Of a DNA stretch of 44,830 nt, positions 475 to 42,194 are shown one piece after another (position 1 is the stretch's first letter; each line of letters opens with the position of its first letter). Where the stretch lies: positions 1 through 44,830 of IMG/VR virus record IMGVR_UViG_2740892487_000005, one strand, 5' to 3'. The DNA is from a virus (lineage: Duplodnaviria > Heunggongvirae > Uroviricota > Caudoviricetes). The translations under genes were made by a program, and so were the position numbers. A model generated the notes under the pieces. The model did no database searches. It had not been told where the DNA came from and saw only the letters and a program-made list of their open reading frames with translations.

Positions 475-490
475 GGCGTTAGGGGTTAAC
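455..490. other. Approximate host/prophage junction (attL region) between yecE remnant and integrase 3' end
   Basis: Host-like yecE reading frame ends about here and the integrase stop is at 486. Exact core not determinable without attR. Confidence 0.35.
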
Positions 491-7016: not shown

Positions 7017-7301
7017 TTAAAATGGGCAGCCGGTACGGTGTTCCCAGTCGTATTCCGCCTGGGCGTAAGCAACTGCCGAAATGAAATCGTTGTAGGCCTC
7101 GCCAGCTTTATCGCTGCGAAGTCCTTCGTATGGACTGGCGTCAATCGGTACGGAGAAGTGGAAGAGGCCGGACGGCTCTTTTGGCATCATGTCGATGATT
7201 TGTTGCGCCCGGTCGTCGATCCACTTCTCTTTCTCGTCGGTGATCTGCTGCTCAGCCCAGCGCCGATCTTCGATGCGGTCGTAAGTGAGGTATGCGTTCA
7301 T
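7017..7301 (-). CDS. gam: Host-nuclease inhibitor Gam-like protein
   Basis: 94 aa beginning MNAYLTYDRIEDRRWAEQQ…, similar to the lambda Gam core; positioned after bet. Confidence 0.65.
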   Translation of the reverse strand: MNAYLTYDRIEDRRWAEQQITDEKEKWIDDRAQQIIDMMPKEPSGLFHFSVPIDASPYEGLRSDKAGEAYNDFISAVAYAQAEYDWEHRTGCPF

Positions 7302-7808
7302 AAATTCTCCGGTTTTCTTTCTTCATGAACGGCATGCTTGCCGTGCATTCGCTCTCTTGCTGCAACGACAACAGCCCTGGCCTCATTAAGGTCGGTGAAA
7401 TTGCCAAGGTGGTATTTTTTGCCGTCGATAGAGCAGCGCGCGTGCCAGCGTTTATCTTTCTTATTCCAATAAACGCCTTTGACGCCGCTTGTGTTGTTTT
7501 TTGGAGAGAGCTTATTTAGCTGATTAATGCAGTGAGGAACGTCCCTGAGGTTGCATAACCTGTTGTCAGTTCTGATGCCGTTTATGTGGTCTATTTCATG
7601 CTCAGGCCACGAACCATACGAATAAAGCCATGCCAGGCGATGGCATAAATATCTTTCGTGGTCGATAGATACTCGAAGATAACCCATAGGGTTTAACGAC
7701 CCAGCGATAGAGCCGGTAACCATGCCGCCGGCAGTTTTTTAGCCTGGTGAAAATCCCAGTCTCTGCGTCGTAGTGAAATAACTCCTTTAACCTCTGAATT
7801 GAAAGCAT
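7298..7808 (-). CDS. HNH endonuclease (AP2-domain type); split by an indel in this sequence
   Basis: N-terminal ORF 7602..7808 (MLSIQRLKELFHYDAETGIFTRLKN…) and C-terminal ORF 7298..7723 (…GYLRVSIDHERYLCHRLAW…KGVYWNKK…) join if one T is removed from the T6 run at 7735-7740. Confidence 0.75.
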
Positions 7809-9209: not shown

Positions 9210-9887
9210 TTATGGGATGTTTAGTATTTTGGCATCAACCACAACGCCGATGATTTTGCAGTTTCCATTAATTTCTAGCATTGGATATGCGGGGTTAAGG
9301 GGCTTTAGGAAGCGTCTGCCGGCATCGATTACAAGCTTCTTAAAGGTCGCTTCGTTATCGCCTTCTAGCTTCGCGACAACCAGCTTTCCGTTGCGCGGCT
9401 CGACTTCAGGATCAACAAGTATCGCTGCTCCCTCGGGTATGCTCAGTCCAGCCGGGGAGGTCATAGAATCCCCTTTAACGTCCAGCCAGAATGAATCTTC
9501 TGAGCAGTCAACAGTCGTGTCATACCAGCGATCTATCGCTCTTCGGTGATAAGGTTCTACAGCTTCCATCCATTGCCCCGCGCTTACCCAGCTGATTACA
9601 GGATAACTTCCTTTTGTCTCGTTCAGTCCTCGAAATGCAACGTTCGAAGGTTCTTCACTGGCGTGTAAAACATCCATCCAGCCAAAAGGCAGATCAAGCG
9701 CAGTTTCAATTTTGCGAGCCATCTTATCGCCGATATTGCGATGAGGGTTTGGTCCCAGTAGCTGGCTAAGCGCAGCCGGACTTGTCTCGATGAGCTCGGC
9801 AAACTGCGCTTTGGTCATTCCAGACTCGTGCTGACGCTTCTCGTACAGCGCTTCCAGGTTGGCTTTTCTGATTTCTTTATTTTCCAT
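9210..9887 (-). CDS. cI: CI-type repressor (N-terminal HTH, C-terminal S24 LexA-like peptidase domain)
   Basis: ORF 9210..10004; probable start at ATG 9887 (MENKEIRKANLEALYEKRQ…). Contains HTH and a GDSM…K self-cleavage-type domain. Divergent from cro across the operator region. Confidence 0.9.
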   Translation of the reverse strand: MENKEIRKANLEALYEKRQHESGMTKAQFAELIETSPAALSQLLGPNPHRNIGDKMARKIETALDLPFGWMDVLHASEEPSNVAFRGLNETKGSYPVISWVSAGQWMEAVEPYHRRAIDRWYDTTVDCSEDSFWLDVKGDSMTSPAGLSIPEGAAILVDPEVEPRNGKLVVAKLEGDNEATFKKLVIDAGRRFLKPLNPAYPMLEINGNCKIIGVVVDAKILNIP

Positions 9888-9904
9888 ACCTGCATTGTTA
9901 CTGC

Positions 9905-9971
9905 TTTTAGCAAAATGATAAATGTGCAAATTGCTAAATGATGCTTGCGTAGTATTTAGCATAACGCTAAA
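9905..9971. promoter_or_regulatory. Putative OR operators with PRM/PR between cI and cro
   Basis: Three sites related to TTTAGC-N5-GCTAAA, including a perfect palindrome TTTAGCataacGCTAAA at 9954-9970, in the 116-bp divergent intergenic region. Confidence 0.55.
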
Positions 9972-10003
9972 CTCCAAATCAAACGACTCACCCGGAGACA
10001 CCA

Positions 10004-10237
10004 ATGAGCACTGAACTACACCGCTGGCGCAAGGCCGCCACTACCGACGAATGGGCGCAGCTCGCAAAGTTGGCTAACACGACGCCAGGTTACCTGGACC
10101 AGATCGCCTACGGAAATCGCCGGGCATCTCCAGAAATGGCATCTGCTATCGAGAAAGGCACGAAGAATTTTCACCGCCAGGCTCCGGTCCTAAAAGAAAG
10201 CCTGGTATTCGCATCGCCGCGTGATACTGCGGCCTAA
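10004..10237 (+). CDS. cro: Cro-like transcriptional regulator (YdaS-type HTH)
   Basis: 77-aa ORF divergent from cI, first gene of the rightward operon. Confidence 0.7.
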   Translation: MSTELHRWRKAATTDEWAQLAKLANTTPGYLDQIAYGNRRASPEMASAIEKGTKNFHRQAPVLKESLVFASPRDTAA

Positions 10238-12826: not shown

Positions 12827-13212
12827 GCAACATCGACAAACGTGGATTACGGGAAGCAGCGGAGAAGGCGACGAAAGGCCGGTGGGCTGTTGAGTTCGAC
12901 GATGAGATTTACTCCACTGACGGCGTGAACCATGAGCAAATAGCCATGGTATTCAGTGAAAACGAAGCGCGTGATGCTGCATTTATCGCCGCAGCCAACC
13001 CCGCCACCGTGCTGGCGCTGCTGGCATCGCTGGAAGCCGCAGAGAAGCGAATCGCTGAACTGGAAGCGAAGCTCGATAGCGCAGATAAATTGCAAGATAG
13101 CGCATTTCGTCATGGTCTTCAGCATGGCTTCAGTTTTGGTCAAACGGATAATCAGGCTGGATTTGAAGAGTGCTTATCTGCATATGGAGCGCGGGGTAAA
13201 GATAATGGCTAA
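12823..13212 (+). CDS. Ead/Ea22-like family protein
   Basis: Start at ATG 12823 after GGGTAGGGG; N-terminus MSNIDKRGLREAAEKATKGRW… is typical of ead/Ea22-like proteins (from memory). Confidence 0.5.
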   Translation: MSNIDKRGLREAAEKATKGRWAVEFDDEIYSTDGVNHEQIAMVFSENEARDAAFIAAANPATVLALLASLEAAEKRIAELEAKLDSADKLQDSAFRHGLQHGFSFGQTDNQAGFEECLSAYGARGKDNG

Positions 13213-13405
13213 TTCATTACTTGAAACATGCAATGACTGGCAAATTCTTCGCGCAGAAATATTGGCTCGAAATCCAAATATGGCCATGACACTTCAAAAG
13301 CTCGACATCATGATTGAGCATTCCGTTAGGGCGGCAATTGAAATATCGCATCGTGTTGACTGGGATTTTAGTGAAGCAGAGCGTAAAGCTAAGGCGGTGA
13401 ATTAA
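13205..13405 (+). CDS. Hypothetical small protein
   Basis: 66 aa from ATG 13205 (MANSLLETCNDW…). Confidence 0.4.
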   Translation: MANSLLETCNDWQILRAEILARNPNMAMTLQKLDIMIEHSVRAAIEISHRVDWDFSEAERKAKAVN

Positions 13406-14152
13406 TGGAACTTTCACGGGATAAGATTAAAGAAATAATCAATGACGATTGGCTTTTGATGGATGATTGCGAAGGAAATAAAAACTGTGACGTTGTCAAA
13501 GAGATGGCGCGTATAGCGTTGGCATCGCTCGAAGCGGAGCCGGTGGCGTGGTTGCTGTCAGGAGGCGGGGCAAAAAAACAACGTCAGCTTCGATAGTGGC
13601 AATGCTTATGCTGACCCATTGCGTGAGGTGACACCACTCTACGCAGCACCACAGTTACCGCAGCCAGCGGTGTTATCAGTGCCAGATGAAATACCGAAAC
13701 TGAAAGATGGGATGGGCTTTAAGTATGTGAAAGATGGCGTCCGATATTCCTTAAATTATGCCAACGGATGGAATCAATGCCGCGCCGCCATGCTTCAGGC
13801 CGAACCTGTAAGTAATAGTGATGAGTTACCGCTGGACTATCTGCAAGGACACAAAGACGGCCTGGAGTGGGCTGCACAATTGGCAGAAGCCAATCATCCG
13901 CAAACAGGTGACTGGTTGTACGACGACCAAATCGATCTTGCCAGGGCGATTCGCAAAGGTCCGGATATGCCTACTGTTCAGGGTGGCAACTCTCCGGTGA
14001 TTCCAGATGGTTGGGTGATGGTGCCGGTTGAGCTTACTCCGGATATGCGTGCAGCATGGGATTCGGCTCCGTACACAGACGATGATGACAACGACATGCA
14101 GGCTGCATACCGCGCGATGATTGCAGCAGCACCGCAGTGGAAGGTGAAGTGA
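13405..14152 (+). CDS. Hypothetical phage protein; probably one gene split by an indel
   Basis: ORF 13405..13596 ends just after the A7 run at 13572-13578. The downstream ORF (13619..14152) has only a TTG start and no RBS, and its frame is open back through the run; removing one A fuses them. Confidence 0.45.
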
Positions 14153-14265
14153 TGCAGAACCCATTCGACGAGATAATTTAAATCTAGTATTTTTATTTTC
14201 ATTGTTAGTCAAAAAAAGCTGAGCTCCGCCACAAAAAACGTGGCTCAGCTTCTGAGTGCACAGAT

Positions 14266-14766
14266 ATGATATTCGAATATATAAAGCAACATTCAGAGGT
14301 AATCATTTCCGGTTTTTCAGTCGCCGCGGCCATCGCCTCTGCCTGGGCTGCTATTGCAAGCAGGCAGACGGCAGCAAAAGCACTAAAAATCCAAAGCAGA
14401 ATGAGCCTGTATGAGCTTCTAAAATCCACTGCCGAAAAAGCTAATTCTTTCTCAAAGGGCAAGAGAGGTGCAGAGTGGGATTTCTATGACGCTGCCAATA
14501 TAGTTCGATGCCTTAACCTGGCAATGGAGAGCATAAAAGATCATACCGAAAATGATGACAAGCTTGATATAAGAGAGCTAAAACAATTCTTCTTAAGCCA
14601 ATTGAATATGGAGCTCTTTGAAGAGCTCAACTATCAAGTCGGACCGGATGCTTTCTTCCGGGGAGAGGAGCCCAACAGCATGAGCAGCGATATTTACGCG
14701 CAATGGATAAATGCTATTTCATTCTTTAACTTCATGGTTGTAACAGATGAGGATCTTGCTGATTAA
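14266..14766 (+). CDS. Hypothetical membrane-anchored protein (cargo gene in nin region)
   Basis: 166 aa with one N-terminal hydrophobic helix (SGFSVAAAIASAWAAIA); visibly AT-rich island between early genes and ninB. Confidence 0.6.
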   Translation: MIFEYIKQHSEVIISGFSVAAAIASAWAAIASRQTAAKALKIQSRMSLYELLKSTAEKANSFSKGKRGAEWDFYDAANIVRCLNLAMESIKDHTENDDKLDIRELKQFFLSQLNMELFEELNYQVGPDAFFRGEEPNSMSSDIYAQWINAISFFNFMVVTDEDLAD

Positions 14767-14954
14767 ACTCAGCGCAATTGATTTTCCAAAATCAACCAGC
14801 CATAATCATGTCATCGGAGCCTGAACAACTCCGGTGACTTCTGCGCATTTAAGGGGACTTAAATGCGACCACAATCTGAACTCCTCACATTGTCACAGAT
14901 GCAGACATGCACCTGCGATTTTCTGTATTCTGCGTTACCTCTCGGAGGTGGCGT

Positions 14955-15392
14955 ATGAAACAGCCTGTTTTCTACCTCCGCGACGAACGCGTTCGCGATA
15001 ACCTCATCGACTACATCAGGAAGCTGCCCGTTAACGACGCTCTGCCGCTCGTGGTGAAGTTTTCTGAGGCTGACCGCACTCTCGCCCAAAACGACCTCTT
15101 CCACGCTCTCTGTGGCGATACAGCGAAGCAATTGCAATGGGCTGGCAAGTCGCGCGACCTCGCTTCATGGAAAGTCCTGTATGTCTCAGGCCATGCCATT
15201 GCCACCGGTAAGCCTGGTGAAGTGGTGCCGGGTCTGGAAGGGGAGTTCTGCGCCATCCGGGAAAGCACTGCGAAGATGGGCATCCGTCGCATGACCAGTC
15301 TCATCGAATACAGCCAGGCATTTGCTGTGCAAAACGGCGTGCAACTCCGTGAAGTTCGCTACTCAGGTGATTACTTCGGGAGGGTTGCGTAA
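14955..15392 (+). CDS. ninB: Recombination protein NinB
   Basis: Start at ATG 14955 after GGAGGTGG; sequence MKQPVFYLRDERVRDNLIDYIRKLP… resembles lambda NinB. Confidence 0.85.
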   Translation: MKQPVFYLRDERVRDNLIDYIRKLPVNDALPLVVKFSEADRTLAQNDLFHALCGDTAKQLQWAGKSRDLASWKVLYVSGHAIATGKPGEVVPGLEGEFCAIRESTAKMGIRRMTSLIEYSQAFAVQNGVQLREVRYSGDYFGRVA

Positions 15393-16204: not shown

Positions 16205-16341
16205 AACCAGAACTGATCGAATCGCTTCGCATGCGCTGGCTGCGTCTCCGCATTTATCGCCGCCCGGGTACGGTGCTGGTGGGCTACCGCATTCTTCGAA
16301 ACTTTATCCGCATCTACCAGATTGCAGGAGCAGCAGCATGA
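16201..16341 (+). CDS. Hypothetical small protein (46 aa)
   Basis: ORF coupled at both ends by ATGA overlaps with rusA and Q. Confidence 0.35.
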
Positions 16342-17042
16342 TCACTCAAGACCTGGAATTTGTACGCCAGCAGCTCATAGTTGCGACTGCGGATCTGAGC
16401 GGGGCGACTAAAGGGCAGTTGATGGCCTGGCTGGAGAACGCTCAGTTCGATACAAAGACATTTAAGCGGAAGAAGCCCAAAGTTTGGGACGAAGAAAGCG
16501 AGAAATGGGTACCGGTTGATAACCCGCCGATCCCCGGCAAACAGTCACACGCGAAGGGCTCGCACATTCCTCTGGTTCAGCCGGTCGAATACTCCACAGC
16601 ATCGTGGCGCCGGGCGGTCCTGTCGCTCGAGGAGCACCAGAAAGCTTGGCTGCTCTGGAACTACAGCGAAAACACGCGCTGGGAGAACCAGCTGGCGATC
16701 ACCCAATGGGCTTGGGCAGAGTTCAGGGCGCAGCTTGGAACCAGGAAGATTGCCGGCAAGACCATGGACAGGCTGAAGGCGTTAATCTGGTTGGCTGCGC
16801 AGGACGTGAAGAAAGGTCTCCGTGGTGGGGATAAATTTACTGGTGTTGAACTGGCTGATCTGACAGGGGTGGAAGAGAAAAACTGGTACAAGACGTTTGG
16901 CGGCCATTGGCAAACAATGCAGGAGGTACTCGAGGCTCTTGATAGAGATGCTTTGCGCGCGGTTTCGCGATCACGTTCACAACAAAAGGCGGCTCATTTC
17001 CAGCAAGGTATTGCAAAAGTAGAGAAAATAGCGCATATTTAA
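16338..17042 (+). CDS. Q: Late-gene antitermination protein Q
   Basis: 234-aa ORF at the end of the nin region, directly upstream of the late regulatory region and lysis genes; family call from memory. Confidence 0.7.
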   Translation: MITQDLEFVRQQLIVATADLSGATKGQLMAWLENAQFDTKTFKRKKPKVWDEESEKWVPVDNPPIPGKQSHAKGSHIPLVQPVEYSTASWRRAVLSLEEHQKAWLLWNYSENTRWENQLAITQWAWAEFRAQLGTRKIAGKTMDRLKALIWLAAQDVKKGLRGGDKFTGVELADLTGVEEKNWYKTFGGHWQTMQEVLEALDRDALRAVSRSRSQQKAAHFQQGIAKVEKIAHI

Positions 17043-17570: not shown

Positions 17571-17969
17571 ATGTCTGAACCTCTAACCATTGCTGGCGGT
17601 GTCACGTCCGCAACTATCGGAGTGACGTTCGCATCTTTGTTCCCCGAGGCAACGCCCGGCGTAATGCTGTGCGCGCTGGCTGGTGCAGCAATGTACGTTC
17701 TGACATCCGATCCACACCAACTGTGGAAGCAGTTCCTGTTCGCCGTCATCAGCTTTGTCGGCGGGGTTTTCTTCTCGGTACCGATGGCGAAGATACTGGC
17801 TGGGGTGATAAATACCGCCCTTGGCCTGTTACAGCCTCCGGTAAGCATCGAAGTATCCCCGAATATCGGCGCGCTGGTTTCCGCTTCCATCTCTGTCGCA
17901 GTCCTGCTTCGCATCCTCGCCAAATCAAAGCGGGGGAAAATGCCGGGACTGGAGGAGGAAGGTAAATGA
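17571..17969 (+). CDS. Putative holin
   Basis: Internal start of ORF 17463..17969; about 133 aa with several hydrophobic helices and a charged C-terminus; first gene of the lysis cassette. Confidence 0.55.
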   Translation: MSEPLTIAGGVTSATIGVTFASLFPEATPGVMLCALAGAAMYVLTSDPHQLWKQFLFAVISFVGGVFFSVPMAKILAGVINTALGLLQPPVSIEVSPNIGALVSASISVAVLLRILAKSKRGKMPGLEEEGK

Positions 17970-18247
17970 CATGGCAAACCATCGTCCTTGATGTAAACGC
18001 CATTATCTGCGCGCTGATCGCCGTAAGGCTGATGTTCTTCAGTAAGAGTGGAAGGCGACACCGTCCGGCTGTTGCCTGGATGGCGTACCTGATGATTCTG
18101 GCCGCTGGATTCACGGCGTTTCGCATCCTCTACGGCAAATATCTGCAGGTTGATCCGGGAGAGTTGATGCTCAACGTCGCCATATGCGTTGCTGTGTGGC
18201 GCTCCCGAGGCAATCTCGCCAAAGTTTTTCAGAAGGCCGGGCAATGA
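17966..18247 (+). CDS. Putative holin-like / lysis membrane protein
   Basis: 93 aa with two hydrophobic segments; ATGA overlaps on both sides. Confidence 0.5.
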   Translation: MTWQTIVLDVNAIICALIAVRLMFFSKSGRRHRPAVAWMAYLMILAAGFTAFRILYGKYLQVDPGELMLNVAICVAVWRSRGNLAKVFQKAGQ

Positions 18248-18786
18248 CTAAAGACGACATTTTCAACAGCATCCTCGGTAAAGAGGGCGGCTACGTGAAT
18301 CATCCGGATGATAAAGGCGGCCCGACGAACTGGAGCATCACCCAAGCAACGGCGCGCGCCCACGGTTATTCCGGAGATATGCGCAACCTGACCCGCGAGC
18401 AGGCCCTCGACATCCTCGAGGCTGATTACTGGTATGGCCCACGCTTCGACCAGGTTGCAACTGCCTCCCCGATCATCGCCGCCGAGCTCTGCGACACCGG
18501 CGTGAACATGGGGCCATCGGTACAAGTGAAATGGTTCCAGCGCTGGCTGAACGTATTCAACAATCAGCAGCAATTCTATCCCGACCTGATCGCCGACGGC
18601 CAAATTGGCCCGCGCAGCATCAGCGCCTTGAAGTCCTTCCTGGAGAAACGCGGACCCGAAGGCGAGACCGTATTGCTCAGAGCACTGAACTGCAGCCAGG
18701 GTCAGCGATATCTCGAGCTGGCAGAGCAGCGCCCGGCTAACGAATCATTCGCCTATGGCTGGATCCGGGAGCGCGTGAGCCTATGA
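18244..18786 (+). CDS. Endolysin (glycoside hydrolase family 108 lysozyme with peptidoglycan-binding domain)
   Basis: Start at ATG 18244; N-terminal …GKEGGYVNHPDDKGGPTNWSIT… motif typical of GH108. Confidence 0.85.
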   Translation: MTKDDIFNSILGKEGGYVNHPDDKGGPTNWSITQATARAHGYSGDMRNLTREQALDILEADYWYGPRFDQVATASPIIAAELCDTGVNMGPSVQVKWFQRWLNVFNNQQQFYPDLIADGQIGPRSISALKSFLEKRGPEGETVLLRALNCSQGQRYLELAEQRPANESFAYGWIRERVSL

Positions 18787-19055
18787 CTAAACTGAAAGCC
18801 ATCCTGGCAGGAATCGGGCTCGCCATCGCGCTGGTACTGGCCGCATTTGGTATTGGCGGTATTCGTGGGCGAGAAAAGGCCGAAGCAGAGTCAGAAAAGA
18901 AACGTACCGACGAGAACGCCGCAGCCACCAAAGCAGCTGCAGAACGACGCGTTGAAGTAACCAAGGAGGCCAGCAATGTTCAGCAGACAGTTAGCCATAT
19001 GCCTGATGACGATGTTGATCGTGAGCTGCGCGCAAACTGGACCCGCAAAGGTTGA
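18783..19055 (+). CDS. Spanin, inner-membrane subunit (Rz-like)
   Basis: N-terminal TM helix followed by charged coiled coil, directly after the endolysin. Confidence 0.6.
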   Translation: MTKLKAILAGIGLAIALVLAAFGIGGIRGREKAEAESEKKRTDENAAATKAAAERRVEVTKEASNVQQTVSHMPDDDVDRELRANWTRKG

Positions 19056-19221
19056 GGTAATCGACACCGGCTGCGACTGGGTCAACGTCATTCGCCTCAC
19101 TGAGCACGACATCGAAGTGATGGATCGCCAGACGAAGAAAGATGTGCTGGCACATAACAAATCGGTGCAGGCGAACTGCCAACCGAGTGAATACCGGGCC
19201 TTACAAACGCGGCCTGAGTGA
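18976..19221 (+). CDS. Spanin, outer-membrane lipoprotein subunit (Rz1-like)
   Basis: Lipoprotein signal with lipobox (MFSRQLAICLMTMLIVSC) in an ORF overlapping the 3' end of the Rz-like gene. Confidence 0.65.
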   Translation: MFSRQLAICLMTMLIVSCAQTGPAKVEVIDTGCDWVNVIRLTEHDIEVMDRQTKKDVLAHNKSVQANCQPSEYRALQTRPE

Positions 19222-19253
19222 AACAGAAACAATAAAGCGAGGTGCTTTCCCCA

Positions 19254-19433
19254 TGAAAAAAAGAAGACCGTGGTTTTATCTCGGTTACTAACTCAATCAG
19301 CGAAGTAAAAAACCTCTTCCTGGGAAATGAAATCCCGCAAGAAGGTGAGGTGCTTGAACTGGTGGTTGTCAAAAGCGAAACCACCGATGACTCATGTGCA
19401 TTGGTGCTTAAGCTGCGTTCAGTTCAAAAATAA
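19254..19433 (+). CDS. Hypothetical small protein (about 59 aa), disrupted by two compensating indels in this sequence
   Basis: ATG 19254 preceded by GAGGTG; A7 run at 19257-19263. Reading is restored by removing one A there and adding one base near 19372-19380, giving …LELVVVKSETTDDSCALVLKLRSVQK*. Confidence 0.25.
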
Positions 19434-19545
19434 GACGAACTGATTGACAAATTGAGTATTTCACGTGTGAATTGATGTAACTCATCGATTACTCTGGTGT
19501 ATGAATTCATTATGAATTTCCACTCATCAGTATCGGAGAATATCG

Positions 19546-20287
19546 ATGCATCAACACATAGCAAACGCCACGTTTCAGGTCATCGCAGGTGACTCAAGTG
19601 GCAGTGGTTTTAGCTTCATCCGTGAAGATTTAGTTGTCACTAATTACCATGTTATAGAGTCATGCTTTAATCTAGAAACCAGAAGTCAAACCCATAGCAT
19701 CATCCTGAAAACGGAAGCTAATGAGCAAATTGCAGCTGGGATTGTCTACTTTGACCACGGTAATGATTTTGTCATCATGAAACTGCTTTCAGCACTGCCC
19801 ACAGGTAGAGTTGTTCTTCAGCCTTCCGTTGGTTTTTCACCCACCAGAGGCAAAAAAAATTATCTTTGCCGGTTATCCACACGGAATACCGCAGTTGCTG
19901 ACAAATGAAGCAATTATCTCAGCACCTATGGAGTTAGGCAGATTTGCAATTGATGGTATGGTCAATGGTGGTAATTCTGGCGGGCCAATTATAGATCGAG
20001 CCTCTGGCGAACTGGTGGGTGTCGTCACTCGGCGTAGATATCTTATGGGCGATCAAGCTGATGCTTTCAGTGAGGAGATTGAAAATTTGCGCCAATATCT
20101 TGCTGCAGCAAGCCAACATGGAAGTGTAGCAATAATGGGTGTCAATTTCGGCCAGATGGCAGATATGTTCGGTAGATCGCTACAGATAGTTTCAGATATG
20201 ATGTTGCTTAACGCTAATTCTGGCATCGGAATAGGATTCTCAATGCAGCCTATCATTGACGCCCTTAGCACCATCCCAACAGAATAA
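19546..20287 (+). CDS. Trypsin-like (S1/chymotrypsin-fold) serine protease, no signal peptide; split by an indel in this sequence
   Basis: ORFs 19546..19908 and 19811..20287 join when one A is removed from the A8 run at 19851-19858. Catalytic triad context TNYHV / DFVIMKL / GNSGGP. RBS GGAGAA before the ATG. Confidence 0.8.
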
Positions 20288-20315
20288 ACGTTCATCATGT
20301 GAGCGGTCACAAGAT

Positions 20316-20339
20316 AAAGCCTCGCATCAACGAGGCTTT
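20316..20339. terminator. Hairpin between convergent genes (weak bidirectional terminator candidate)
   Basis: Perfect 9-bp inverted repeat AAAGCCTCG/CGAGGCTTT with 6-nt loop; flanking U-tracts are weak. Confidence 0.35.
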
Positions 20340-20366
20340 AGGACAAATTCAGGGGAATTCATATCC

Positions 20367-20801
20367 TTAATCTTTTATTACTTCAAATTCTATCGTATCC
20401 CCCAAGGACTCCGTCATTACAGCGCACTTTATGACTGTAGTGCGCGAATTGGCTTCATTATCTACGAGTGCCTTTCGGAATATCGCTGAAAACTTGCTGA
20501 TCACGTCATTTCTTTGATCTCTAAAATTCGATCCTTCAATACGGATCAAGCCTTTGATGGCCGTTTCTAAGTCTTCTAGCTTTTGCCAATAAGTGAATGG
20601 TCTTGCTGCATTCTCGCTAAAAGTCTCCAGTTCACTCAATTTCTTAAGCTTGCCGATGTCGACGCGAACAGCATCGGATATTTCTTTCGCTCTATGAGTA
20701 TTCCCAACTTTGTTTACAGAGTATGTAAGTAAAAAGTATTCATGCAGCATCATTTGTTCCATTAATGAGATTGATACTAAAAAATTGGGACAAAAAGTCA
20801 T
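20367..20801 (-). CDS. Hypothetical protein (131-144 aa), convergent partner of the protease gene
   Basis: AT-rich ORF with no family recognised; start may be the internal Met at 20762. Confidence 0.55.
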   Translation of the reverse strand: MTFCPNFLVSISLMEQMMLHEYFLLTYSVNKVGNTHRAKEISDAVRVDIGKLKKLSELETFSENAARPFTYWQKLEDLETAIKGLIRIEGSNFRDQRNDVISKFSAIFRKALVDNEANSRTTVIKCAVMTESLGDTIEFEVIKD

Positions 20802-20879
20802 TATTCAATAGTAAGTTAAAAATTTTTCCAGCCATTTAAATCGGCGGATCGCTAAAGTCTTATCTATAGGAGCAGTATC

Positions 20880-21481
20880 ATGAGCAAACCGGACTGGGAG
20901 GCTATTGAATCGGCTTACCGGGCCGGAGTGATGTCCCTTCGCGAAATAGCATCGCAGCATGGCATCAGCGAAGGTGCTATCCGTAAGCGTGCCAAGCGTG
21001 ATGAATGGTCACGTGACCTCAACGCGAAGGTGAAAGAGCGCGCTGACGATCTGGTACGCAAAGCGAGGTACGCAAGCAGGTACGCAGCGAAACGGTACTT
21101 TCTGAGCGCGTACTAATCGAGGCCACTGCCGAGGTAATTGCCACAGTACGCATGGAGCACCGCGGCGACATCCGCCGGGCGAGGACTCTTGCGAACGCAC
21201 TGTTTGATGAGCTCGAGGCTGAGTGCGCAGACGTTGAGGCGCTGCGTACCTTGGGCCAAATGATGCTGTGTCCAGATGAGAACGGGCGTGACCGGCTGAA
21301 CGAGCTTTACCATGCCATCATCAGCATGCCCGAGCGCGTGAAGTCGATGAAAGCGCTGAGCGAGACGTTGAAGAATCTGATTGGCCTCGAGCGGCAGGCC
21401 TACAGCATGGACGAAGGCGAAAAAGATAAGGTCGTTGACGCGCTGTCTGACCTGATGGATTCGCTCTCTCAGGGGGCGTAA
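20880..21481 (+). CDS. Terminase small subunit; split by an indel in this sequence
   Basis: ORF 20880..21116 (HTH-type N-terminus MSKPDWEAIESAYRAGVMSLREIASQHGISEGAIRKRAKR) continues in ORF 21152..21481 after a one-base deletion near 21063-21066. Confidence 0.7.
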
Positions 21482-22952
21482 TGAAACCTGAGCACCTCAA
21501 GCTTCTGGCTGATAAAGACTGGCGGCTGAACAATCTCTACTGGATCACTGACAAAGAGGGTAAGCCCACGCGCTTCAGGATGACGCCTGAGCAGCGGGAA
21601 TATTTCGAGGGGATCCATACCCGCAACATCATCCTGAAAGCCCGGCAGCTCGGTTTCACCACCGAGGTGTGCATCATCCAGCTGGACGCGGCGCTGTTCG
21701 AGTCGGCGAAGTGCGCGCTGATTGCCCACACCCTGAACGACGCCAAGCGCCTGTTCCGTGAAAAGGTGAAGTACGCCTACGACAAGCTGCCCAAAGAAAT
21801 CAGGGCTGCGAACCCGGCAAGTAACGACTCTTCTGGTGAGCTGGTGTTTAAAAAGGGCGGATCGCTCTACGTCAGCACCTCATTTCGTGGTGGTACGCTG
21901 CGTTACCTGCATGTTTCCGAGTTCGGCAAGATATGCGCCAAGTATCCGGACAAAGCTCGTGAGATCGTCACTGGTGCGTTTGAAGCGGTGTCGACAGGAT
22001 GCTTCGCACTATTGAGAGTACGGCGGAGGGCCGGGCGGGATACTTCTTCGATTACTGCCAGACCGCCGAGAGAGCATTGCTTCAGGGCAAACCGCTATCC
22101 GCGCTGGACTGGAAGTTTTTCTTCTTCTCATGGTGGAAGAATCCGCAGTACGCAATCGACCCGTTAGAGCCGCTACCGCAGCGTCTGGTTGATTACTTCG
22201 CCGAGATGAAGGCTAAGCACGGAGTTGTCGTAAACAACCGCCAGAAGGCCTGGTACTACGCCAAAGAGAAAACGCTCGGCGACGACATGAAGCGCGAGTA
22301 CCCGACCATCCCGGCCGAGGCATTCCAGCAGTCGGTCGAAGGCGCGTACTACGCCAAGCAGTTCCGCTGGCTCTACACCAATAAGCGGATCGGCCAGATT
22401 CCGGATAACTCACACCTCCCGGTTCACACGTTCTGGGATATCGGCGTGGGCGACTCCACGGCTATCTGGTTCGTTCGTGAGGTTGGCGAAGAGTTCCACA
22501 TCATCGACTACTACGAAAACTCAGGCGAGGGCCTGCGGCACTACATGAAGGTGCTGAAAGACCGCGGGTATACCTACGGTGAGCACTGGGGGCCGCACGA
22601 TATCGAGAACCGCGAGTTTGCCGCTGATGCGAAATCCCGCAAAGAGCTGGCGCGCGAAGGTTACGAAATCGATGGTCAGATGTACTCGCTGAATTTCAAA
22701 GTGGTGCCGAAAGCCGGCATCGATACCGGCATCGAGTCGGCGCGTGAAATCCTCCCGAAATGCGTATTCGACGAGGAGAAATGCTCGGAAGGCATCTCTC
22801 ACCTTGAGGGCTACCGGAAAGAGTGGGACGACAAACGCGGCTGCTGGAAAGACAAACCTCTCCATGACGCCACCTCACACGGTGCTGACGGCTTCCGTTA
22901 CTTCGCAGTGACGAAGAACAACCGCAAGCAGGTCGGCGCAGTATTCTTCTAA
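21481..22952 (+). CDS. Terminase large subunit; split by an indel in this sequence
   Basis: N-terminal ATPase ORF 21481..22167 and C-terminal nuclease ORF 21999..22952 (…IESTAEGRAGYFFDY…) meet at about 21997-21999, where one base appears to be missing. Confidence 0.9.
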
Positions 22953-27296: not shown

Positions 27297-27729
27297 ATGG
27301 CTAAAGACGGAAAGCACGTAATTCACGCGGGCGGCATTTTCCCAAACCCGCTTCTCAATCGCGAAGGCGCGGCGGCTGCGGCGACCAAGCCCGGCACCAT
27401 CGGTTTCTTCGCCGCCGGCAAGTTCACCGCCTCCGTAGACGGTAATGAACAGGCGATCCTCTATGTCGCTGATTACGACTATCTGCGCTGTCAGACCGTC
27501 GACGATGCGATCCCGGTCGGCGAGCTGGTGGTGGGTATCCATCCGCTGGAAGGTATGTTCCTGAACGTGCGCGCGGCGGCGGGCACCTACAAAAAAAGGC
27601 CAGCCTCTGACCATTGCCAGCGGCCAGGTTAAAGCCGCCGGTACAACCGATAACGTCCGCGCCTACGTCGAAGAAGACGTCGCTTACACCGTGGTGGCAG
27701 GCGACCTGCTGCGCGTCGTAATTAAGTAA
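27297..27729 (+). CDS. Head decoration-like protein (DUF2190-like); split by an indel in this sequence
   Basis: ORF 27297..27632 continues to the stop at 27727-27729 if one A is removed from the A7 run at 27591-27597 (…GTYKKGQPLTIASGQVKAAGTTDNVRAYVEEDVAYTVVAGDLLRVVIK*). Confidence 0.5.
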
Positions 27730-27740
27730 GGAGCACCTGA

Positions 27741-28822
27741 ATGCTTGTATTTTCCCGCTCTATCGGTGAACGCACCGGTAACCTCGAAGTCAACCAGGCG
27801 CAGTTCCGCGAACTGGAGATGGCGCGCAACATGAGTGCGCAGTCTGTCGCTGACTTCATCGCCCGTGCTCGCTTCGGCGAAAACGGACATCTGGATGCCG
27901 TGAACGCCGTGGACGACATCCGCCGTATGTACCGCGCATACGATCAGACCGTGCTGGCGCAGTTCGAACCGAATACCGAGTTCACTCTGTTCAACGACCT
28001 GATGCCGCTGTCCCGCTCTGTTCGCCTGGAAGAGTCCGTGTATGAATATGCGCGTACCGGCGGCCGTGGCTGGGCTCATACCTCCATGTCAGGCCAGATT
28101 GGCGCGGCGCTGGATGCTCGCGCGTACAGCTTCGACGGTACGATGGTGCCGGTGCATGACAGTGGCTTTAAGTTCCACTGGCGTGACCCGATCTTCAACA
28201 AAGGTTCTGCACTGGCATCCCTGGCTGATGCGCAGCGCGGCTCTGTTGATGACGTGCGCCGCAAAATCGTCGACTACATGTTCAACGGCTTCCGCGATTC
28301 AGAAGGCAACTTCGTGACCTTCGACGGCAAGACCTGGAAAGGGTTGAAGAATGACGATCGCGTAGCTCAGGTTGACCTCGGCGCTTCCGGTCTGAACATC
28401 AACTTCGCTACCAGCACTGATCCGGAAGCGATGCGTAACGGGGCGATTAAGCTGCGCGATACGCTGAAACTTCAGAACAACCAGTACGGCCAGCAGACTG
28501 GTACGTTTCCAGCGAAATCATGTCCAACTGGGAGCAGTACTACGACACCCAGAACAAGACCCGCACGGTACTGGAAGAGATCCTGAAACTGTCTGGTATT
28601 GCCGCGGTGAAAGAGGATGCTGAACTGACCGGAAACCAGATCCTGATTGTTCCGCTGGCTGCGGGTGTTATCGCACCAGTTGTTGGTCAGGCCGTTGGTA
28701 CCGTGGCAGATCCGCGCCAGTTCTATAACAGCGACTATGTATGGCGCACCTGGGGTGCTGCTGGCCTGATGGTCAAGCAGGACATCAATCTCAAACACGG
28801 CGTTCTGTACGCTCACAGCTAA
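27741..28822 (+). CDS. Major capsid protein; split by an indel in this sequence
   Basis: ORFs 27741..28586 and 28520..28822 join with a one-base correction at the T3 run 28506-28508. Strong RBS AAGGAG; size about 360 aa. Confidence 0.8.
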
Positions 28823-32862: not shown

Positions 32863-33201
32863 ATGAAGAAGTTAGCTTTGGCATTGCTTGCAGTGGTTTC
32901 CTTGGGAGCTACCGCGTCTAATACGTACACAAAAGAACAGCTCAACTCAATGGCTGCGTCTGGGAGTTACCCAGAACAGGAGTCACCAGTTACTAAGAGC
33001 GTTGAGTCAGTGTCATTTGAGAGGTGCAAGCAGGACACCTACGGCGTTTATAACCAAATCGCGGGCAATTATCCGGCACAAGAAGTTGTCAACACTGGCA
33101 TCCTTTACACTGTTAAAATTTGGACCAACGACGGCGTGATCATGGTTTCATGTTCAGAGCCTGATGGTAAAAAACTTGTCACTCAATCCTCCTACAAGTA
33201 A
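32863..33201 (+). CDS. Hypothetical secreted protein (signal peptide)
   Basis: Start at ATG 32863 (MKKLALALLAVVSLGATA…); AT-rich cargo. Confidence 0.55.
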   Translation: MKKLALALLAVVSLGATASNTYTKEQLNSMAASGSYPEQESPVTKSVESVSFERCKQDTYGVYNQIAGNYPAQEVVNTGILYTVKIWTNDGVIMVSCSEPDGKKLVTQSSYK

Positions 33202-33212
33202 AGGGAATCTAT

Positions 33213-33545
33213 ATGAGCGAACAAGAGCAACTTCAGCGTTTGAGTGAAGAGGTGGCCAGAGCATACCTGCGCCACCTGGAATCAACCACTGGCGGAAATA
33301 AAGTTACTTACGATGGCGTGACAAGATCAATTACCCTCGAAGAACTAGTTTTTGGTCTCATAGGGGTCGCGCACTTCAATGCGAAAAACCATCCAGATGA
33401 CGAGATACTAAAAGACCCATATAAACATCTCTCGCACATGATTGATATTTTATCAAAGCCGTATGTGATAACTGAGTTTGGTCTAAAAGTTATTGAACAT
33501 ATGAATGAAATTTCCATTCATAAACAGCGCGGGGTGTTGATGTGA
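33213..33545 (+). CDS. Hypothetical protein (110 aa)
   Basis: Middle gene of the cargo cassette. Confidence 0.5.
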   Translation: MSEQEQLQRLSEEVARAYLRHLESTTGGNKVTYDGVTRSITLEELVFGLIGVAHFNAKNHPDDEILKDPYKHLSHMIDILSKPYVITEFGLKVIEHMNEISIHKQRGVLM

Positions 33546-33919
33546 AAACGGGTGCAATGTGCTTATCTTTGCTGATTTTAATTTCTGGTTGCGATGATGG
33601 CGGAAAAGGAAGTGTATCTAACGGCGCTGATACAGCTATAACAATGTTCAAATCATCTATGAGTGAGGGGGATCATCCACCCTTCAACTATCAGCGTCTC
33701 GTATTCAAACCAGATCAGCAAAACTCAAGCAAGGTAATAAGTGGGTGGGTTTGCGGAGATGGAAGCATGAAGCGTGATGATAAGACCTTTAACTTTAAAG
33801 TTAGAGGTCATGTTATTAAGTCAGAAGATATTTCATACGTTGGTGACATAGCCGCACTGCTTTCTGATACTGAAATGGTCAAATACGACATTCTTTACAA
33901 TAAGAATTGCAAAGAATAA
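33542..33919 (+). CDS. Hypothetical lipoprotein
   Basis: Lipobox …LLILISGC… at the N-terminus. Confidence 0.55.
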   Translation: MKTGAMCLSLLILISGCDDGGKGSVSNGADTAITMFKSSMSEGDHPPFNYQRLVFKPDQQNSSKVISGWVCGDGSMKRDDKTFNFKVRGHVIKSEDISYVGDIAALLSDTEMVKYDILYNKNCKE

Positions 33920-33940
33920 GCAGTAAGGAATATTAACAAA

Positions 33941-33962
33941 CCTCGCCTTGGCGGGGTTTTTT
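33941..33962 (+). terminator. Intrinsic terminator after the lipoprotein cassette
   Basis: GC-rich stem (CCTCGC/GCGGGG) followed by T6. Confidence 0.6.
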
Positions 33963-33979
33963 ATTGCCCGGAGATAGCA

Positions 33980-42179: not shown

Positions 42180-42194
42180 ATGCCAGGAGCTAGC

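What the first reader, a model, noticed from the sequence alone, without database searches (positions are those of the whole stretch)
19440..20870. Cytoplasmic trypsin-like serine protease with a convergent unknown gene between lysis cassette and terminase
After correcting one homopolymer indel, 19546..20287 encodes a roughly 247-aa chymotrypsin-fold protease with an intact His/Asp/Ser context (TNYHV, DFVIMKL, GNSGGP) and no signal peptide, PDZ domain or TM segment. It is convergent with a 131-144 aa unknown protein (20367..20801); a 9-bp perfect hairpin lies between them. The whole segment looks AT-rich and occupies the lysis-to-packaging junction, a classic moron site. A stand-alone intracellular trypsin-like protease is unusual for a phage and is a plausible effector of an abortive-infection-type system.
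Basis: partly seen in the sequence, partly recalled or inferred. Interest (0 to 1): 0.7.

Follow-up and report, generated by a model that had tools for sequence, protein, structure and literature searches.

The report
Stand-alone cytoplasmic protease prophage cargo gene
A temperate phage integrated in an enterobacterial genome carries, between its lysis and DNA-packaging genes, a small mobile cassette encoding an uncharacterised intracellular HtrA-like serine protease plus a 59-residue partner protein; its context suggests, but does not prove, a role in excluding rival phages.

Summary
The protease is real. Deleting one A from the A8 run at 19852-19859 gives a 246-aa protein with a Pfam Trypsin_2 match, a His35/Asp74/Ser144 triad, and no signal peptide, TM segment or PDZ domain. 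A sister prophage (L096) is identical over 19200-20900 apart from one SNP and one fewer A at this run and at a second run, so the frameshift is almost certainly a homopolymer error.

The proposed pairing with the convergent ORF (20367-20801) is not supported. That ORF is an orphan with one homologue in 5.8 billion proteins. It is absent from all other loci that carry the protease.

It is limited to Enterobacteriaceae and does not co-evolve with the protease.

My best reading (confidence ~0.4) is a latent, self-contained protease that excludes rival phages, analogous to Lit. No experiment supports this yet.

The parts
19253..19433 (+). 59-aa ORF (MKKEDRGFISV...LKLRSVQK). It is the conserved upstream partner of the protease in Enterobacteriaceae. 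In this window an extra A in the run at 19256-19262 breaks the frame.
   Evidence: It aligns with the E. coli EC11 'hypothetical protein' and is intact there and in L096. It is present 113 nt upstream of the protease in 26 of 37 prophage loci. The family has 67 clusters, 61 of them exactly 59 aa, and every source name is an Enterobacterales genus. Pooled dN/dS is 0.24. There are no Pfam or PHROG matches. The AF2 model is low-confidence (pLDDT 67): a short helix plus a beta-hairpin at 34-56.
19434..19545 (+). Conserved 113-nt (112 nt as counted here) non-coding spacer between the small ORF and the protease. It contains a near-palindrome, an invariant CATTAT (19508-19513) and a GGAG Shine-Dalgarno (19535-19538).
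   Evidence: Mean pairwise identity is 0.70-0.84 across 20 distinct loci, as high as or higher than the flanking coding sequence. RNAalifold finds no convincing structure: -7.5 kcal/mol with one covarying pair. The promoter scan finds no sigma-70 consensus here, and there is no Rfam match. Its function is unknown; a promoter or operator is inferred.
19470..19490 (.). Near-palindrome AATTGATG-N5-CATCGATT (consensus AATTGATG-N5-CATCAATT) inside the spacer. It is a candidate operator.
   Evidence: The alignment of 20 loci shows it. Pairs 43-63 of the RNAalifold consensus are kept mostly by invariance.
19546..20287 (+). S1 (chymotrypsin-fold, HtrA/S1C-like) serine protease of 246 aa after removing one A. 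The triad is His35, Asp74, Ser144. A ~58-residue helical hairpin (about residues 165-222) is inserted where HtrA proteases have the short L2 loop, before the last strand (NANSGIGIGF).
19852..19859 (+). A8 homopolymer that carries the +1 frameshift in the protease gene.
   Evidence: The sister locus L096 has A7 and is otherwise identical. The E. coli EC11 homologue has no gap-compatible extra base.
20316..20339 (.). Perfect 9-bp hairpin (AAAGCCTCG / CATCAA / CGAGGCTTT) between the convergent genes. It is probably a bidirectional terminator, with weak T-tracts here.
   Evidence: Fold z-scores are -4.8 (+) and -6.0 (-). Different but analogous GC hairpins followed by T-runs follow the protease in EC11 and MB20. 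The terminator scan did not report it because the T-run is short.
20367..20801 (-). Orphan ORF of 144 aa (128 aa if it starts at Met17, 20753). It is a separate cargo gene and not part of the protease cassette.
   Evidence: It has one homologue in 5.8 billion proteins (P0121, 128 aa, 98%). It is present and identical in L096. It is absent from the MB20 sister prophage and from all other carriers. It has no Pfam, PADLOC or NCBIfam match, and only a weak PHROG 36011 hit (6.6e-7, unknown function).
18244..19221 (+). Context: end of the lysis module, comprising the GH108 endolysin (18244-18786), a membrane-anchored spanin-like protein (18783-19055) and an embedded lipoprotein spanin-like ORF (18976-19221).
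   Evidence: tblastn with annotated MB20 proteins gives 92% identity for the endolysin and the 90-aa protein. Hydropathy of the latter is 2.62. The 3' ~140 nt of this block travels with the cassette into the unrelated EC11 prophage.
20880..21481 (+). Context: the small terminase subunit, split here into 20880-21116 and 21152-21481.
   Evidence: A 171-aa homologue in L105 spans both window ORFs; the same ORF family is called as a single 200-aa ORF in L096.

Best explanation
The segment 19253-20339 is a mobile prophage cargo cassette: a 59-aa ORF, a conserved spacer, a protease gene and a hairpin. It encodes a stand-alone, cytoplasmic serine protease of the HtrA type that has lost the PDZ domains and export signal of canonical HtrAs. 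In their place it has a hypervariable helical hairpin inserted in loop L2.

I propose the following mechanism. The enzyme is made in the lysogen and held latent. A protein of an incoming, unrelated phage, read by the variable hairpin and the 46-60 loop, switches it on. It then cleaves an essential host or phage protein and so blocks that infection. This parallels the way the e14 prophage protease Lit cleaves EF-Tu when triggered by the T4 Gol peptide.

Shown: the gene, the fold, the catalytic residues, purifying selection, mobility, the conserved position, and the nature of the neighbours.

Inferred: proteolytic activity, cytoplasmic location, latency, the trigger, the target, and any effect on phages. 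The role of the 59-aa protein is unknown; it may modulate expression or activity.
For: (1) The enzyme looks competent. It matches Trypsin_2 above threshold. D74 and S144 (GNSGGP) are invariant and H35 nearly invariant across 45 diverse homologues. The model is confident and HtrA-like. Windowed dN/dS is 0.02-0.54.
(2) It is self-contained. Clustering the neighbours of 14 loci, and then of 32 viral loci, found no partner conserved outside close enteric relatives. The family keeps a fixed ~245-aa architecture across Proteobacteria, Firmicutes, Planctomycetes, Chloroflexi and Deferribacteres.
(3) It behaves like accessory cargo. GC is 41% against 54%. It sits directly after the lysis genes in prophages with Nu1/GpA, Terminase_3, HNH+Terminase_4/TerL and PBSX-type packaging modules. 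A hairpin terminator follows it. The same site holds other cargo in related prophages. Its upstream flank is found in only 29 of 5426 complete E. coli genomes.
(4) Distant members have conflict-system contexts. One is inserted between hsdM and hsdS of a type I R-M operon (L014). Others lie next to a TIR/ThsB-like protein (L012), the PADLOC candidate PDC-S31 (L006), or NYN, HNH and integrase/recombinase genes.
(5) The best PADLOC matches are protease domains of immune proteins: retron type XI RT-protease at 3e-14 and the Avs1b N-terminus at 6e-6. Trypsin-like domains are recognised immune modules (bioRxiv 10.1101/2025.09.03.673762; PMC7736814).
(6) The inserted hairpin and the 46-60 loop are the fastest-evolving parts. 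dN/dS there is 0.35-0.54, and hairpin identity falls to 24% between alleles that are 55% identical overall. That pattern fits a recognition surface.
(7) Precedents exist. Lit is a latent protease on a defective lambdoid prophage, and PrrC is embedded in a type Ic R-M locus (PMC3014915).
Against: There is no experimental evidence of any kind, and I found no paper on this family. No PADLOC model covers the whole protein. The defence-context evidence is anecdotal: 12 loci with no background rate.

The gene points the same way as the late operon and follows the lysis genes directly, so it could simply be a late gene. No sigma-70 promoter was found upstream, so expression in the lysogen is unproven.

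Elevated dN/dS in the hairpin never exceeds 1, so it may reflect relaxed constraint rather than an arms race.

In this particular window the gene is frameshifted. The identical truncated 158-aa product is deposited for an E. coli assembly (P0031).
Confidence: 0.4

Rival explanations
1. It is a lytic-cycle accessory or counter-defence protease. The gene is transcribed with the late operon after induction and cleaves a host protein, for example a defence or stress factor, or tunes lysis, to the benefit of the phage that carries it.
For: It has the same orientation as, and lies immediately downstream of, holin, endolysin and spanin genes in every enteric prophage examined. No independent promoter was detected. 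Phage accessory genes at such sites often antagonise host defences (abstract of bioRxiv 10.1101/2023.04.06.535777, listed).
Against: A terminator-like hairpin follows the gene, and a conserved non-coding spacer precedes it. These suggest a separately regulated unit. The family also occurs away from phages, inside a type I R-M operon and in chromosomal islands. It is absent from 50,697 sequenced phage genomes. It is dispensable, because related prophages lack it.
Confidence: 0.2
2. It is a toxin-antitoxin-like pair. The 59-aa protein is a labile inhibitor of the protease; loss of its synthesis, through phage shut-off or loss of the prophage, frees the protease to arrest the cell.
For: A small upstream gene and a larger downstream enzyme are strictly linked at a fixed 113-nt spacing. 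All 6 E. coli genomes inspected show this, as do 26 of 37 prophage loci, and the two families' longest carrier contigs have matching lengths in at least 13 cases. The small protein is under purifying selection. Its predicted beta-hairpin could in principle dock on a protease (low confidence).
Against: The two genes show no co-evolution: Spearman rho is 0.02 between their pairwise distances, and the same protease allele is found with small-ORF variants of 64-92% identity to the window's. Most of the protease family, including enteric members in Pantoea and Cronobacter and all non-enteric members, lacks the small ORF. A 113-nt spacer is atypical for type II TA operons (my knowledge).
Confidence: 0.1
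3. It is a lysogenic-conversion factor unrelated to phage conflict. The protease remodels host physiology, for example by degrading a regulator or a stress protein, to the benefit of the lysogen.
For: The lysis-terminase junction of lambdoid prophages is a classical site for conversion genes (my knowledge; DUF1398, YlcI/YnfO, DUF2560 and Rha are seen there). The family is spread by horizontal transfer into many phyla.
Against: The contexts of non-phage members (type I R-M, TIR, PDC-S31, HNH, NYN) point to conflict systems rather than metabolism. The closest profile matches are immune protease domains.
Confidence: 0.1
4. This is the first reader's model: the protease and the convergent 131-144-aa protein form a two-gene abortive-infection system.
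For: The two genes are adjacent, share a hairpin, are both AT-rich, and are both present in the window and in L096.
Against: The convergent ORF has a single homologue in 5.8 billion proteins. It is absent from the MB20 sister prophage and from all 36 other prophage loci carrying the protease, where the downstream gene is hypervariable. It has no recognisable domain.
Confidence: 0.03
5. In this genome the cassette is a dead remnant. The frameshifts are real and the prophage is decaying.
For: There are frameshifts in the small ORF, the protease, both terminase subunits, the major capsid gene and another head gene. The same truncated 158-aa product is deposited for an E. coli assembly.
Against: Where the cause was traced, in three genes, the break falls in an A7 or A8 run. 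L096 is identical across 1.7 kb apart from one SNP and the two missing A's. There are 32 gaps over 7.6 kb at 95.8% identity, which looks like indel-prone sequencing. P0031 may be the very record the window comes from, so it is not independent evidence.
Confidence: 0.07

Closest known systems
HtrA/DegS/DegP-type serine proteases (MEROPS S1C)
   Different: It has no signal peptide or membrane anchor and no PDZ domain. The short L2 loop is replaced by a ~58-residue helical hairpin that superposes on no PDB relative. It is encoded on prophages and mobile islands rather than as a housekeeping gene.
Lit protease of the defective lambdoid prophage e14 (Gol-activated cleavage of EF-Tu)
   Same: Lit is a single-gene, cytoplasmic, latent protease carried by a lambdoid prophage that excludes an unrelated phage (PMC3014915). 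This is the functional model I adopt.
   Different: No homology was detected or tested. Lit is, to my knowledge, a zinc metalloprotease, whereas this is a serine protease. The trigger, the target and even the phenotype are unknown for the present family.
Trypsin-like protease domains of immune systems (Avs1/AVAST type 1, retron type XI RT-protease, Hachiman/Argonaute trypsin-MBL modules)
   Same: These are the best PADLOC hits (RT-Protease_XI 3e-14; Avs1b N-terminus 6e-6). All are cytoplasmic trypsin-fold domains used in anti-phage systems.
   Different: In those systems the protease is fused to, or adjacent to, a sensor (RT, STAND NTPase, HamAB) and usually an MBL nuclease substrate. Here the protein is only 246 aa, with no RT, NTPase or MBL gene nearby.
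PrrC anticodon nuclease embedded in a type Ic R-M locus
   Same: One family member (L014) is inserted in a type I R-M operon in the order hsdM-protease-hsdS-x-hsdR, with overlapping gene ends. This parallels hsdM-hsdS-prrC-hsdR (PMC3014915).
   Different: The enzyme class is different. Only one such locus was seen, and the window's copy is on a prophage, not in an R-M operon.
Phage 'morons' at the lysis/packaging junction of lambdoid phages (e.g. bor of lambda)
   Same: It is an insertion between conserved modules, with atypical base composition, followed by a terminator, and polymorphic for presence or absence among related prophages.
   Different: The cargo is an uncharacterised protease plus a 59-aa protein. 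An own promoter, part of the classical definition, was not demonstrated.

Membership tests
Peptidase family S1 (PA clan, chymotrypsin fold) | Sequence match to the trypsin-like peptidase domain above the curated threshold | tested here: met
   PF13365 Trypsin_2 scores E 1.4e-17, 65.2 bits against a cut-off of 27.6. PF00089 scores 28.8 bits against 20.6.
Peptidase family S1 (PA clan, chymotrypsin fold) | Catalytic triad in the order His, Asp, Ser | tested here: met
   The triad is H35 (TNYHV), D74 (DFVIMKL) and S144 (GNSGGP). D74 and S144 are invariant and H35 is at least 90% conserved in 45 homologues.
Peptidase family S1 (PA clan, chymotrypsin fold) | Double beta-barrel fold | tested here: met
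Peptidase family S1 (PA clan, chymotrypsin fold) | Proteolytic activity | not testable with these tools
   This needs purified protein and a substrate assay, with a Ser144Ala control.
Canonical HtrA (DegP/DegQ/DegS) proteases | S1C-type protease core | tested here: met
   The top structural matches are Deg2, DegS, DegQ, HtrA and Rv0983.
Canonical HtrA (DegP/DegQ/DegS) proteases | At least one C-terminal PDZ domain | tested here: not met
   There is no PDZ match in Pfam, and the protein ends 15 residues after the last core strand.
Canonical HtrA (DegP/DegQ/DegS) proteases | Export to the periplasm (signal peptide or membrane anchor) | tested here: not met
   The conserved N-terminus MHQxLANATFQV starts at Met1. 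Maximum 19-residue hydropathy is 1.15, against 2.62 for a TM control. No dedicated signal-peptide predictor was available.
Retron type XI (RT fused to trypsin-like protease) | Reverse-transcriptase domain in the same protein | tested here: not met
   The PADLOC hit covers only profile positions 339-503 of 506, the protease part. The protein is 246 aa with no RT match.
AVAST type 1 (Avs1b) | STAND NTPase and sensor repeats following the N-terminal protease | tested here: not met
   The match is limited to Avs1b positions 4-107 of 1924. NCBIfam scores 19.6 bits against a cut-off of 1500.
Trypsin-MBL immune module | Adjacent metallo-beta-lactamase-fold nuclease gene | tested here: not met
   The neighbours are spanins, the 59-aa ORF, an orphan ORF with no Pfam match, and terS. 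No MBL appeared among the conserved neighbours.
Phage prohead (head-maturation) protease | Location in the head-assembly module next to portal, scaffold and capsid genes | tested here: not met
   It lies upstream of terS, separated from the portal by the terminase genes. Carriers have their own S49 (L001) or ClpP (L093) head proteases. PHROG hits are to families of unknown function or a generic 'protease'.
Moron (autonomous cargo unit in a phage genome) | Insertion between conserved modules, present or absent among related phages, with atypical composition | tested here: met
   GC is 41% against 54%. The same junction holds other genes in L132 and in other prophages. The cassette is found ahead of four terminase types.
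Moron (autonomous cargo unit in a phage genome) | Own promoter upstream and terminator downstream | tested here: inconclusive
   A hairpin is present, though its T-tract is weak here and strong in MB20. No sigma-70 consensus was found, but the spacer is unusually conserved and contains a palindrome and an invariant CATTAT.
Type II toxin-antitoxin pair (59-aa ORF + protease) | Cognate pair that is co-inherited and co-evolves | tested here: not met
   Linkage is strict within the enteric clade, but the pairwise distances are uncorrelated (rho 0.02). Most of the family lacks the small ORF.
Known anti-phage defence system (PADLOC v2.0.0) | Full-length match to a defence-system protein model | tested here: not met
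   There are only partial domain-level hits for the protease, and none for the small or the convergent ORF.

The most novel reading that the evidence does not exclude
The family is a new single-polypeptide immune sensor-effector. It would be an HtrA-core protease whose hypervariable L2 helical hairpin recognises a protein of an invading phage and unlocks proteolysis of an essential target. It would be spread on prophages, type I R-M operons and defence islands across bacterial phyla, as a serine-protease counterpart of Lit.
Probability: 0.3. Interest if true: 0.7.

Novelty: new variant of a known kind. Interest (0 to 1): 0.45.

Why it matters
Proteases are emerging as key switches in bacterial immunity, as in Avs1, gasdermin activation and trypsin-MBL modules. 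In every characterised case, however, the trypsin-like domain is wired to a separate sensor and usually a separate effector.

A 246-residue protease that carries its own variable insertion and travels alone would be the minimal form of such a system. It would also be an easy one to dissect. The allelic series of hairpins found here (24-95% identity on a conserved core) is a ready-made specificity panel.

If it instead serves the phage, as a counter-defence or lysis accessory, it would be a rare case of a phage-encoded cytoplasmic HtrA-like enzyme. Either way, the cassette marks the lysis-terminase junction of enteric prophages as a productive place to look for conflict genes.

Tried and rejected
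(1) Convergent ORF as a partner: rejected. It is an orphan and not co-inherited.

(2) Structured RNA or riboswitch in the conserved 113-nt spacer: RNAalifold gives -7.5 kcal/mol with one covarying pair, and there is no Rfam hit. Not supported.

(3) Conserved upstream ORF overlapping the protease start (19497-19592): rejected. Single-base indels in L107 and L122 break its frame.

(4) Sigma-70 promoter in the spacer or upstream of the small ORF: the scan found none, and my manual candidates were weak.

(5) Homology between the 59-aa ORF and the 74-aa ORF that occupies the same position in the Pantoea-type loci (L005, L105): hhalign probability is 0.2%.

(6) Domain fusions that might reveal function: the long hits in the representative search are generic multi-protease, PDZ or RCC1 proteins. 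One family-specific fusion has MORN repeats. None is informative.

(7) Close relatives among sequenced phages or viral structure predictions: none by tblastn, and only generic trypsin-fold matches in BFVD.

(8) Literature on this family: none found. The Nature 2026 prophage Abi paper concerns HepS, an unrelated protein.

(10) Positive selection: no window reaches dN/dS > 1.
Full report
OBSERVATION

The window is a temperate lambdoid prophage. It has an integrase at 486-1550(-), a CI-like HTH+S24 repressor at 9210-10004(-), a Q antiterminator at 16338-17042, lysis genes at 17571-19221, terminase from 20880, and then portal, head, tail and a tailspike at 42180-44186.

At 19546-20287 two overlapping ORFs in adjacent frames (120 and 158 aa) together encode one protein. 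Removing one A from the A8 run at 19852-19859 gives 246 residues carrying TNYHV, DFVIMKL and GNSGGP. Pfam Trypsin_2 matches at 1.4e-17, well above its cut-off, and there is no PDZ match. Hydropathy shows no signal-like or TM segment: the maximum is 1.15, against 2.62 for the adjacent spanin-like protein.

The segment 19440-20870 is 41.3% GC against 53.8% for the window. The 9-bp hairpin at 20316-20339 is real and very stable (z -4.8 and -6.0 on the two strands). The convergent ORF at 20367-20801 exists.

IS THE FRAMESHIFT REAL?

An IMG/VR prophage contig (L096) is identical to the window over 19200-20900 except for three differences: one fewer A in the 19852 run, one fewer A in a second run at 19256-19262, and one SNP. 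Intact 246-aa proteins of 99% and 90% identity exist in other assemblies.

The window also has frame breaks in both terminase subunits, the major capsid gene and another head gene. Those traced sit in A7/A8 runs. It differs from L096 by 32 gaps in 7.6 kb. The simplest reading is indel-prone sequencing.

A 158-aa 'hypothetical protein' deposited for E. coli (P0031) is identical to the window's downstream ORF. It may well be the same record, so it does not count as independent evidence for a true pseudogene.

The second extra A (19256-19262) breaks a 59-aa ORF at 19253-19433. In E. coli EC11, MB20, CFSAN061770, SCU-171, 2014EL-1343-2 and B7A, this ORF is annotated as a hypothetical protein and is followed, after a fixed spacer, by an 'S1 family peptidase'.

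- It is found 113 nt upstream of the protease in 26 of 37 prophage loci.
- Its DNA with the spacer occurs in 29 of 5426 complete E. coli genomes, always as a near-full-length match that runs up to the protease start.
- The protein family has 67 clusters, 61 of them exactly 59 aa, and every source name is an Enterobacterales genus; in at least 13 cases the longest carrier contig has the same length as that of a protease cluster.
- Pooled dN/dS is 0.24, so it is a real gene.
- It has no Pfam or PHROG match, and its model is of low confidence: a helix plus a beta-hairpin, pLDDT 67.

THE CONVERGENT ORF IS NOT A PARTNER

It has a single homologue among 5.8 billion proteins, a 128-aa protein on a 949-bp contig. 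It has no family match apart from a weak PHROG of unknown function. It is present in L096, but it is absent from the MB20 sister prophage. There the protease is followed by a strong terminator, a 59-aa hypothetical and terS.

Across 32 viral loci and several E. coli genomes the gene downstream of the protease is hypervariable. DUF2560, DUF6953+YodC, DUF1398+YlcI, HNH and many singletons all occur there. A related prophage with the same terS type but no protease carries other cargo at the site, including a different convergent gene. The orphan ORF is therefore just another occupant of a variable cargo site.

THE PROTEASE FAMILY

A word-indexed search found 297 relatives; 107 of the 120 listed are 240-260 aa and match the query over 95% or more of its length. 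An exhaustive profile search of 1.84 billion representatives gave only 59 clusters at E<=1e-30. A looser tier of 255-275-aa proteins matches profile positions ~15-244.

Members occur in Escherichia, Klebsiella, Citrobacter, Enterobacter, Leclercia, Pantoea and Cronobacter. They also occur in Photobacterium, Agarivorans, Salinisphaera, Lysobacter, Limnohabitans, Acidithiobacillus, Lysinibacillus, and in Deferribacteres, Planctomycetes, Chloroflexi, Firmicutes and delta-proteobacterial MAGs. A few carry a C-terminal SEC-C zinc motif.

The alignment shows a conserved N-terminus that starts at Met1 (MHQxLANATFQV). D74 and S144 are invariant, H35 is nearly invariant, and an invariant N-A-N-x-G-I lies just before the last strand.

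The protein is thus an HtrA-type core without PDZ or export signal, and with a new helical hairpin.

CONTEXT

Clustering of neighbours found nothing conserved beyond the protease itself once close enteric relatives are left aside.

In enteric prophages the gene always follows the lysis cassette, in the late-gene orientation. It lies ahead of Nu1/GpA, Terminase_3, HNH+Terminase_4/TerL or PBSX-type terminases, and behind lambda-S/GH24, class II holin/RrrD, GH19 or GH108 lysis modules. In EC11 the cassette brings along ~140 nt of the spanin gene of a window-type lysis module. In Citrobacter (L002) spanin-like genes are duplicated on either side of an insertion. Both observations indicate spread by recombination through flanking homology.

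It is not a head protease, because carriers have their own S49 or ClpP enzymes in the head module.

Outside the enterics the contexts are as follows:
- L014: between hsdM and hsdS of a tightly packed type I R-M operon.
- L012: next to a TIR/ThsB-like protein.
- L006: next to a DUF2971 protein that matches the PADLOC candidate PDC-S31 at 3e-56.
- L088 and L089: near NYN and HNH genes.
- L009, L013 and L090: beside integrases or recombinases.

These contexts are suggestive of conflict islands. However, they come from a dozen loci with no background estimate.

EVOLUTIONARY PATTERN

The protease is under purifying selection overall. The catalytic-serine window has dN/dS 0.02. Residues 46-60 and 166-195 evolve fastest, at 0.35-0.54. 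The hairpin drops to 24% identity between alleles that are 55% identical overall.

Synonymous divergence is saturated in the protease (median dS 1.6) but is only 0.55 in the small ORF. The first 15 protease codons share the low divergence of the upstream block. The block of small ORF, spacer and protease 5' end is therefore a recently shared unit onto which old, diverse protease alleles have been recombined.

Pairwise distances of the small ORF and the protease are accordingly uncorrelated (rho 0.02, p 0.8). Core and hairpin distances within the protease correlate (rho 0.50). This argues against a co-evolving inhibitor-enzyme pair.

The spacer is as conserved as the coding flanks (0.70-0.84). 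It contains a near-palindrome (19470-19490), an invariant CATTAT ~35 nt before the ATG, and a GGAG. It shows no convincing RNA structure, no Rfam match and no consensus promoter. Its role is unexplained; DNA-level regulation is my guess.

MECHANISM

The best PADLOC matches are the protease parts of retron type XI RT-proteases and of Avs1b. Trypsin-like domains are established immune modules that activate effectors by cleavage (bioRxiv 10.1101/2025.09.03.673762; PMC7736814). This protein lacks the RT, the STAND NTPase and any MBL neighbour, so it belongs to none of those systems.

The nearest functional precedent is Lit. It is a latent protease on the defective lambdoid prophage e14 that cleaves EF-Tu when the T4 Gol peptide appears. 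PrrC is the precedent for an effector embedded in a type I R-M locus (PMC3014915).

I therefore favour, at about 0.4, a latent, self-contained protease that a rival phage's protein activates. The hypervariable hairpin and the 46-60 loop would serve as the recognition surface.

The main rival, at 0.2, is a late-expressed accessory or counter-defence enzyme. Its orientation and position fit this, and no independent promoter was found.

NOVELTY AND VERDICT

The gene family is already annotated generically as 'S1 family peptidase', so the sequence itself is not new. I found no description of the family, of its L2 hairpin, of its 59-aa companion, or of its function.

It is best called a new variant of a known kind: a trypsin-fold protease in phage-host conflict loci.

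Interest is moderate. The candidate is clean, experimentally tractable and widely distributed. Its role is inferred from context only, and the specific two-gene idea that motivated the finding is wrong.

Noticed in passing
window 20880-21481, 21481-22952, 27297-27726, 27741-28819: The small and large terminase subunits, a head protein and the major capsid gene are all split by frameshifts relative to MB20 and L096. At least one break lies in an A7 run (27591). The window differs from L096 by 32 gaps in 7.6 kb. The sequence is either indel-prone or from a decaying prophage.
   Followed up: partly
window 19434-19545 (palindrome 19470-19490; CATTAT 19508-19513): The non-coding spacer between the 59-aa ORF and the protease is as conserved as the coding flanks across 20 loci. 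It holds repeated ATTGAT/ATTGAA motifs and a near-palindrome. No RNA structure or consensus promoter explains the conservation.
   Followed up: partly
L001 5169-6164 (-); L002/L003 1-60 (-), L004 1805-2836 (-): In other prophages that carry the protease, the Q-to-holin gap holds an opposite-strand gene. In E. coli EC11 it is an 'SDH family Clp fold serine proteinase'; in Citrobacter it is an AbiJ_NTD4/Abi_C protein. This looks like a second cargo hot spot with defence-like genes.
   Followed up: no
L002 1362-1842 and 4243-4666: The Citrobacter prophage has two copies of the spanin-like gene pair flanking two unknown genes (268 and 289 aa) just upstream of the protease cassette. This looks like a footprint of cargo insertion by recombination through spanin homology.
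   Followed up: no
L014 116-6477: In a delta-proteobacterial MAG the protease is packed inside a type I R-M operon in the order hsdM, protease, hsdS, a 217-aa unknown, hsdR. Adjacent gene ends abut or overlap.
   Followed up: partly
P0080, P0106, P0118 (L006 5001-5819; L088 6001-6825): Marine gammaproteobacterial members of the family carry an extra C-terminal SEC-C zinc-binding motif (CPCxSGKKxKxCCG).
   Followed up: no
L005 4679-4903; L105 4689-4913: In the Pantoea-type loci (L005, L105) the position of the 59-aa ORF is taken by an unrelated 74-aa protein (MSIRAKFHC...). It matches the C-terminus of PHROG 6978, a family of unknown function.
   Followed up: partly
window 33001-34000; also 13001-15000: The window has other low-GC stretches: 41.8% at 33-34 kb, just before the 970-aa ORF at 33980-36892, and 46-49% at 13-15 kb. 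Their ORFs (33213-33545, 33542-33919, 13619-14152, 14266-14766) have no Pfam match. They may be further cargo genes.
   Followed up: partly
window 7298-7723 (-): An HNH_3 + AP2-domain protein lies in the early region of the prophage. It is probably a homing-endonuclease-like gene.
   Followed up: no
L132 2439-3875: E. coli 23CRST004 carries a prophage whose terS gene matches the first ~110 nt of the window's terS at 89% (H17). It holds three different unknown genes (193 aa, 72 aa, and a convergent 170 aa) at the lysis-terminase junction instead of the protease cassette.
   Followed up: no
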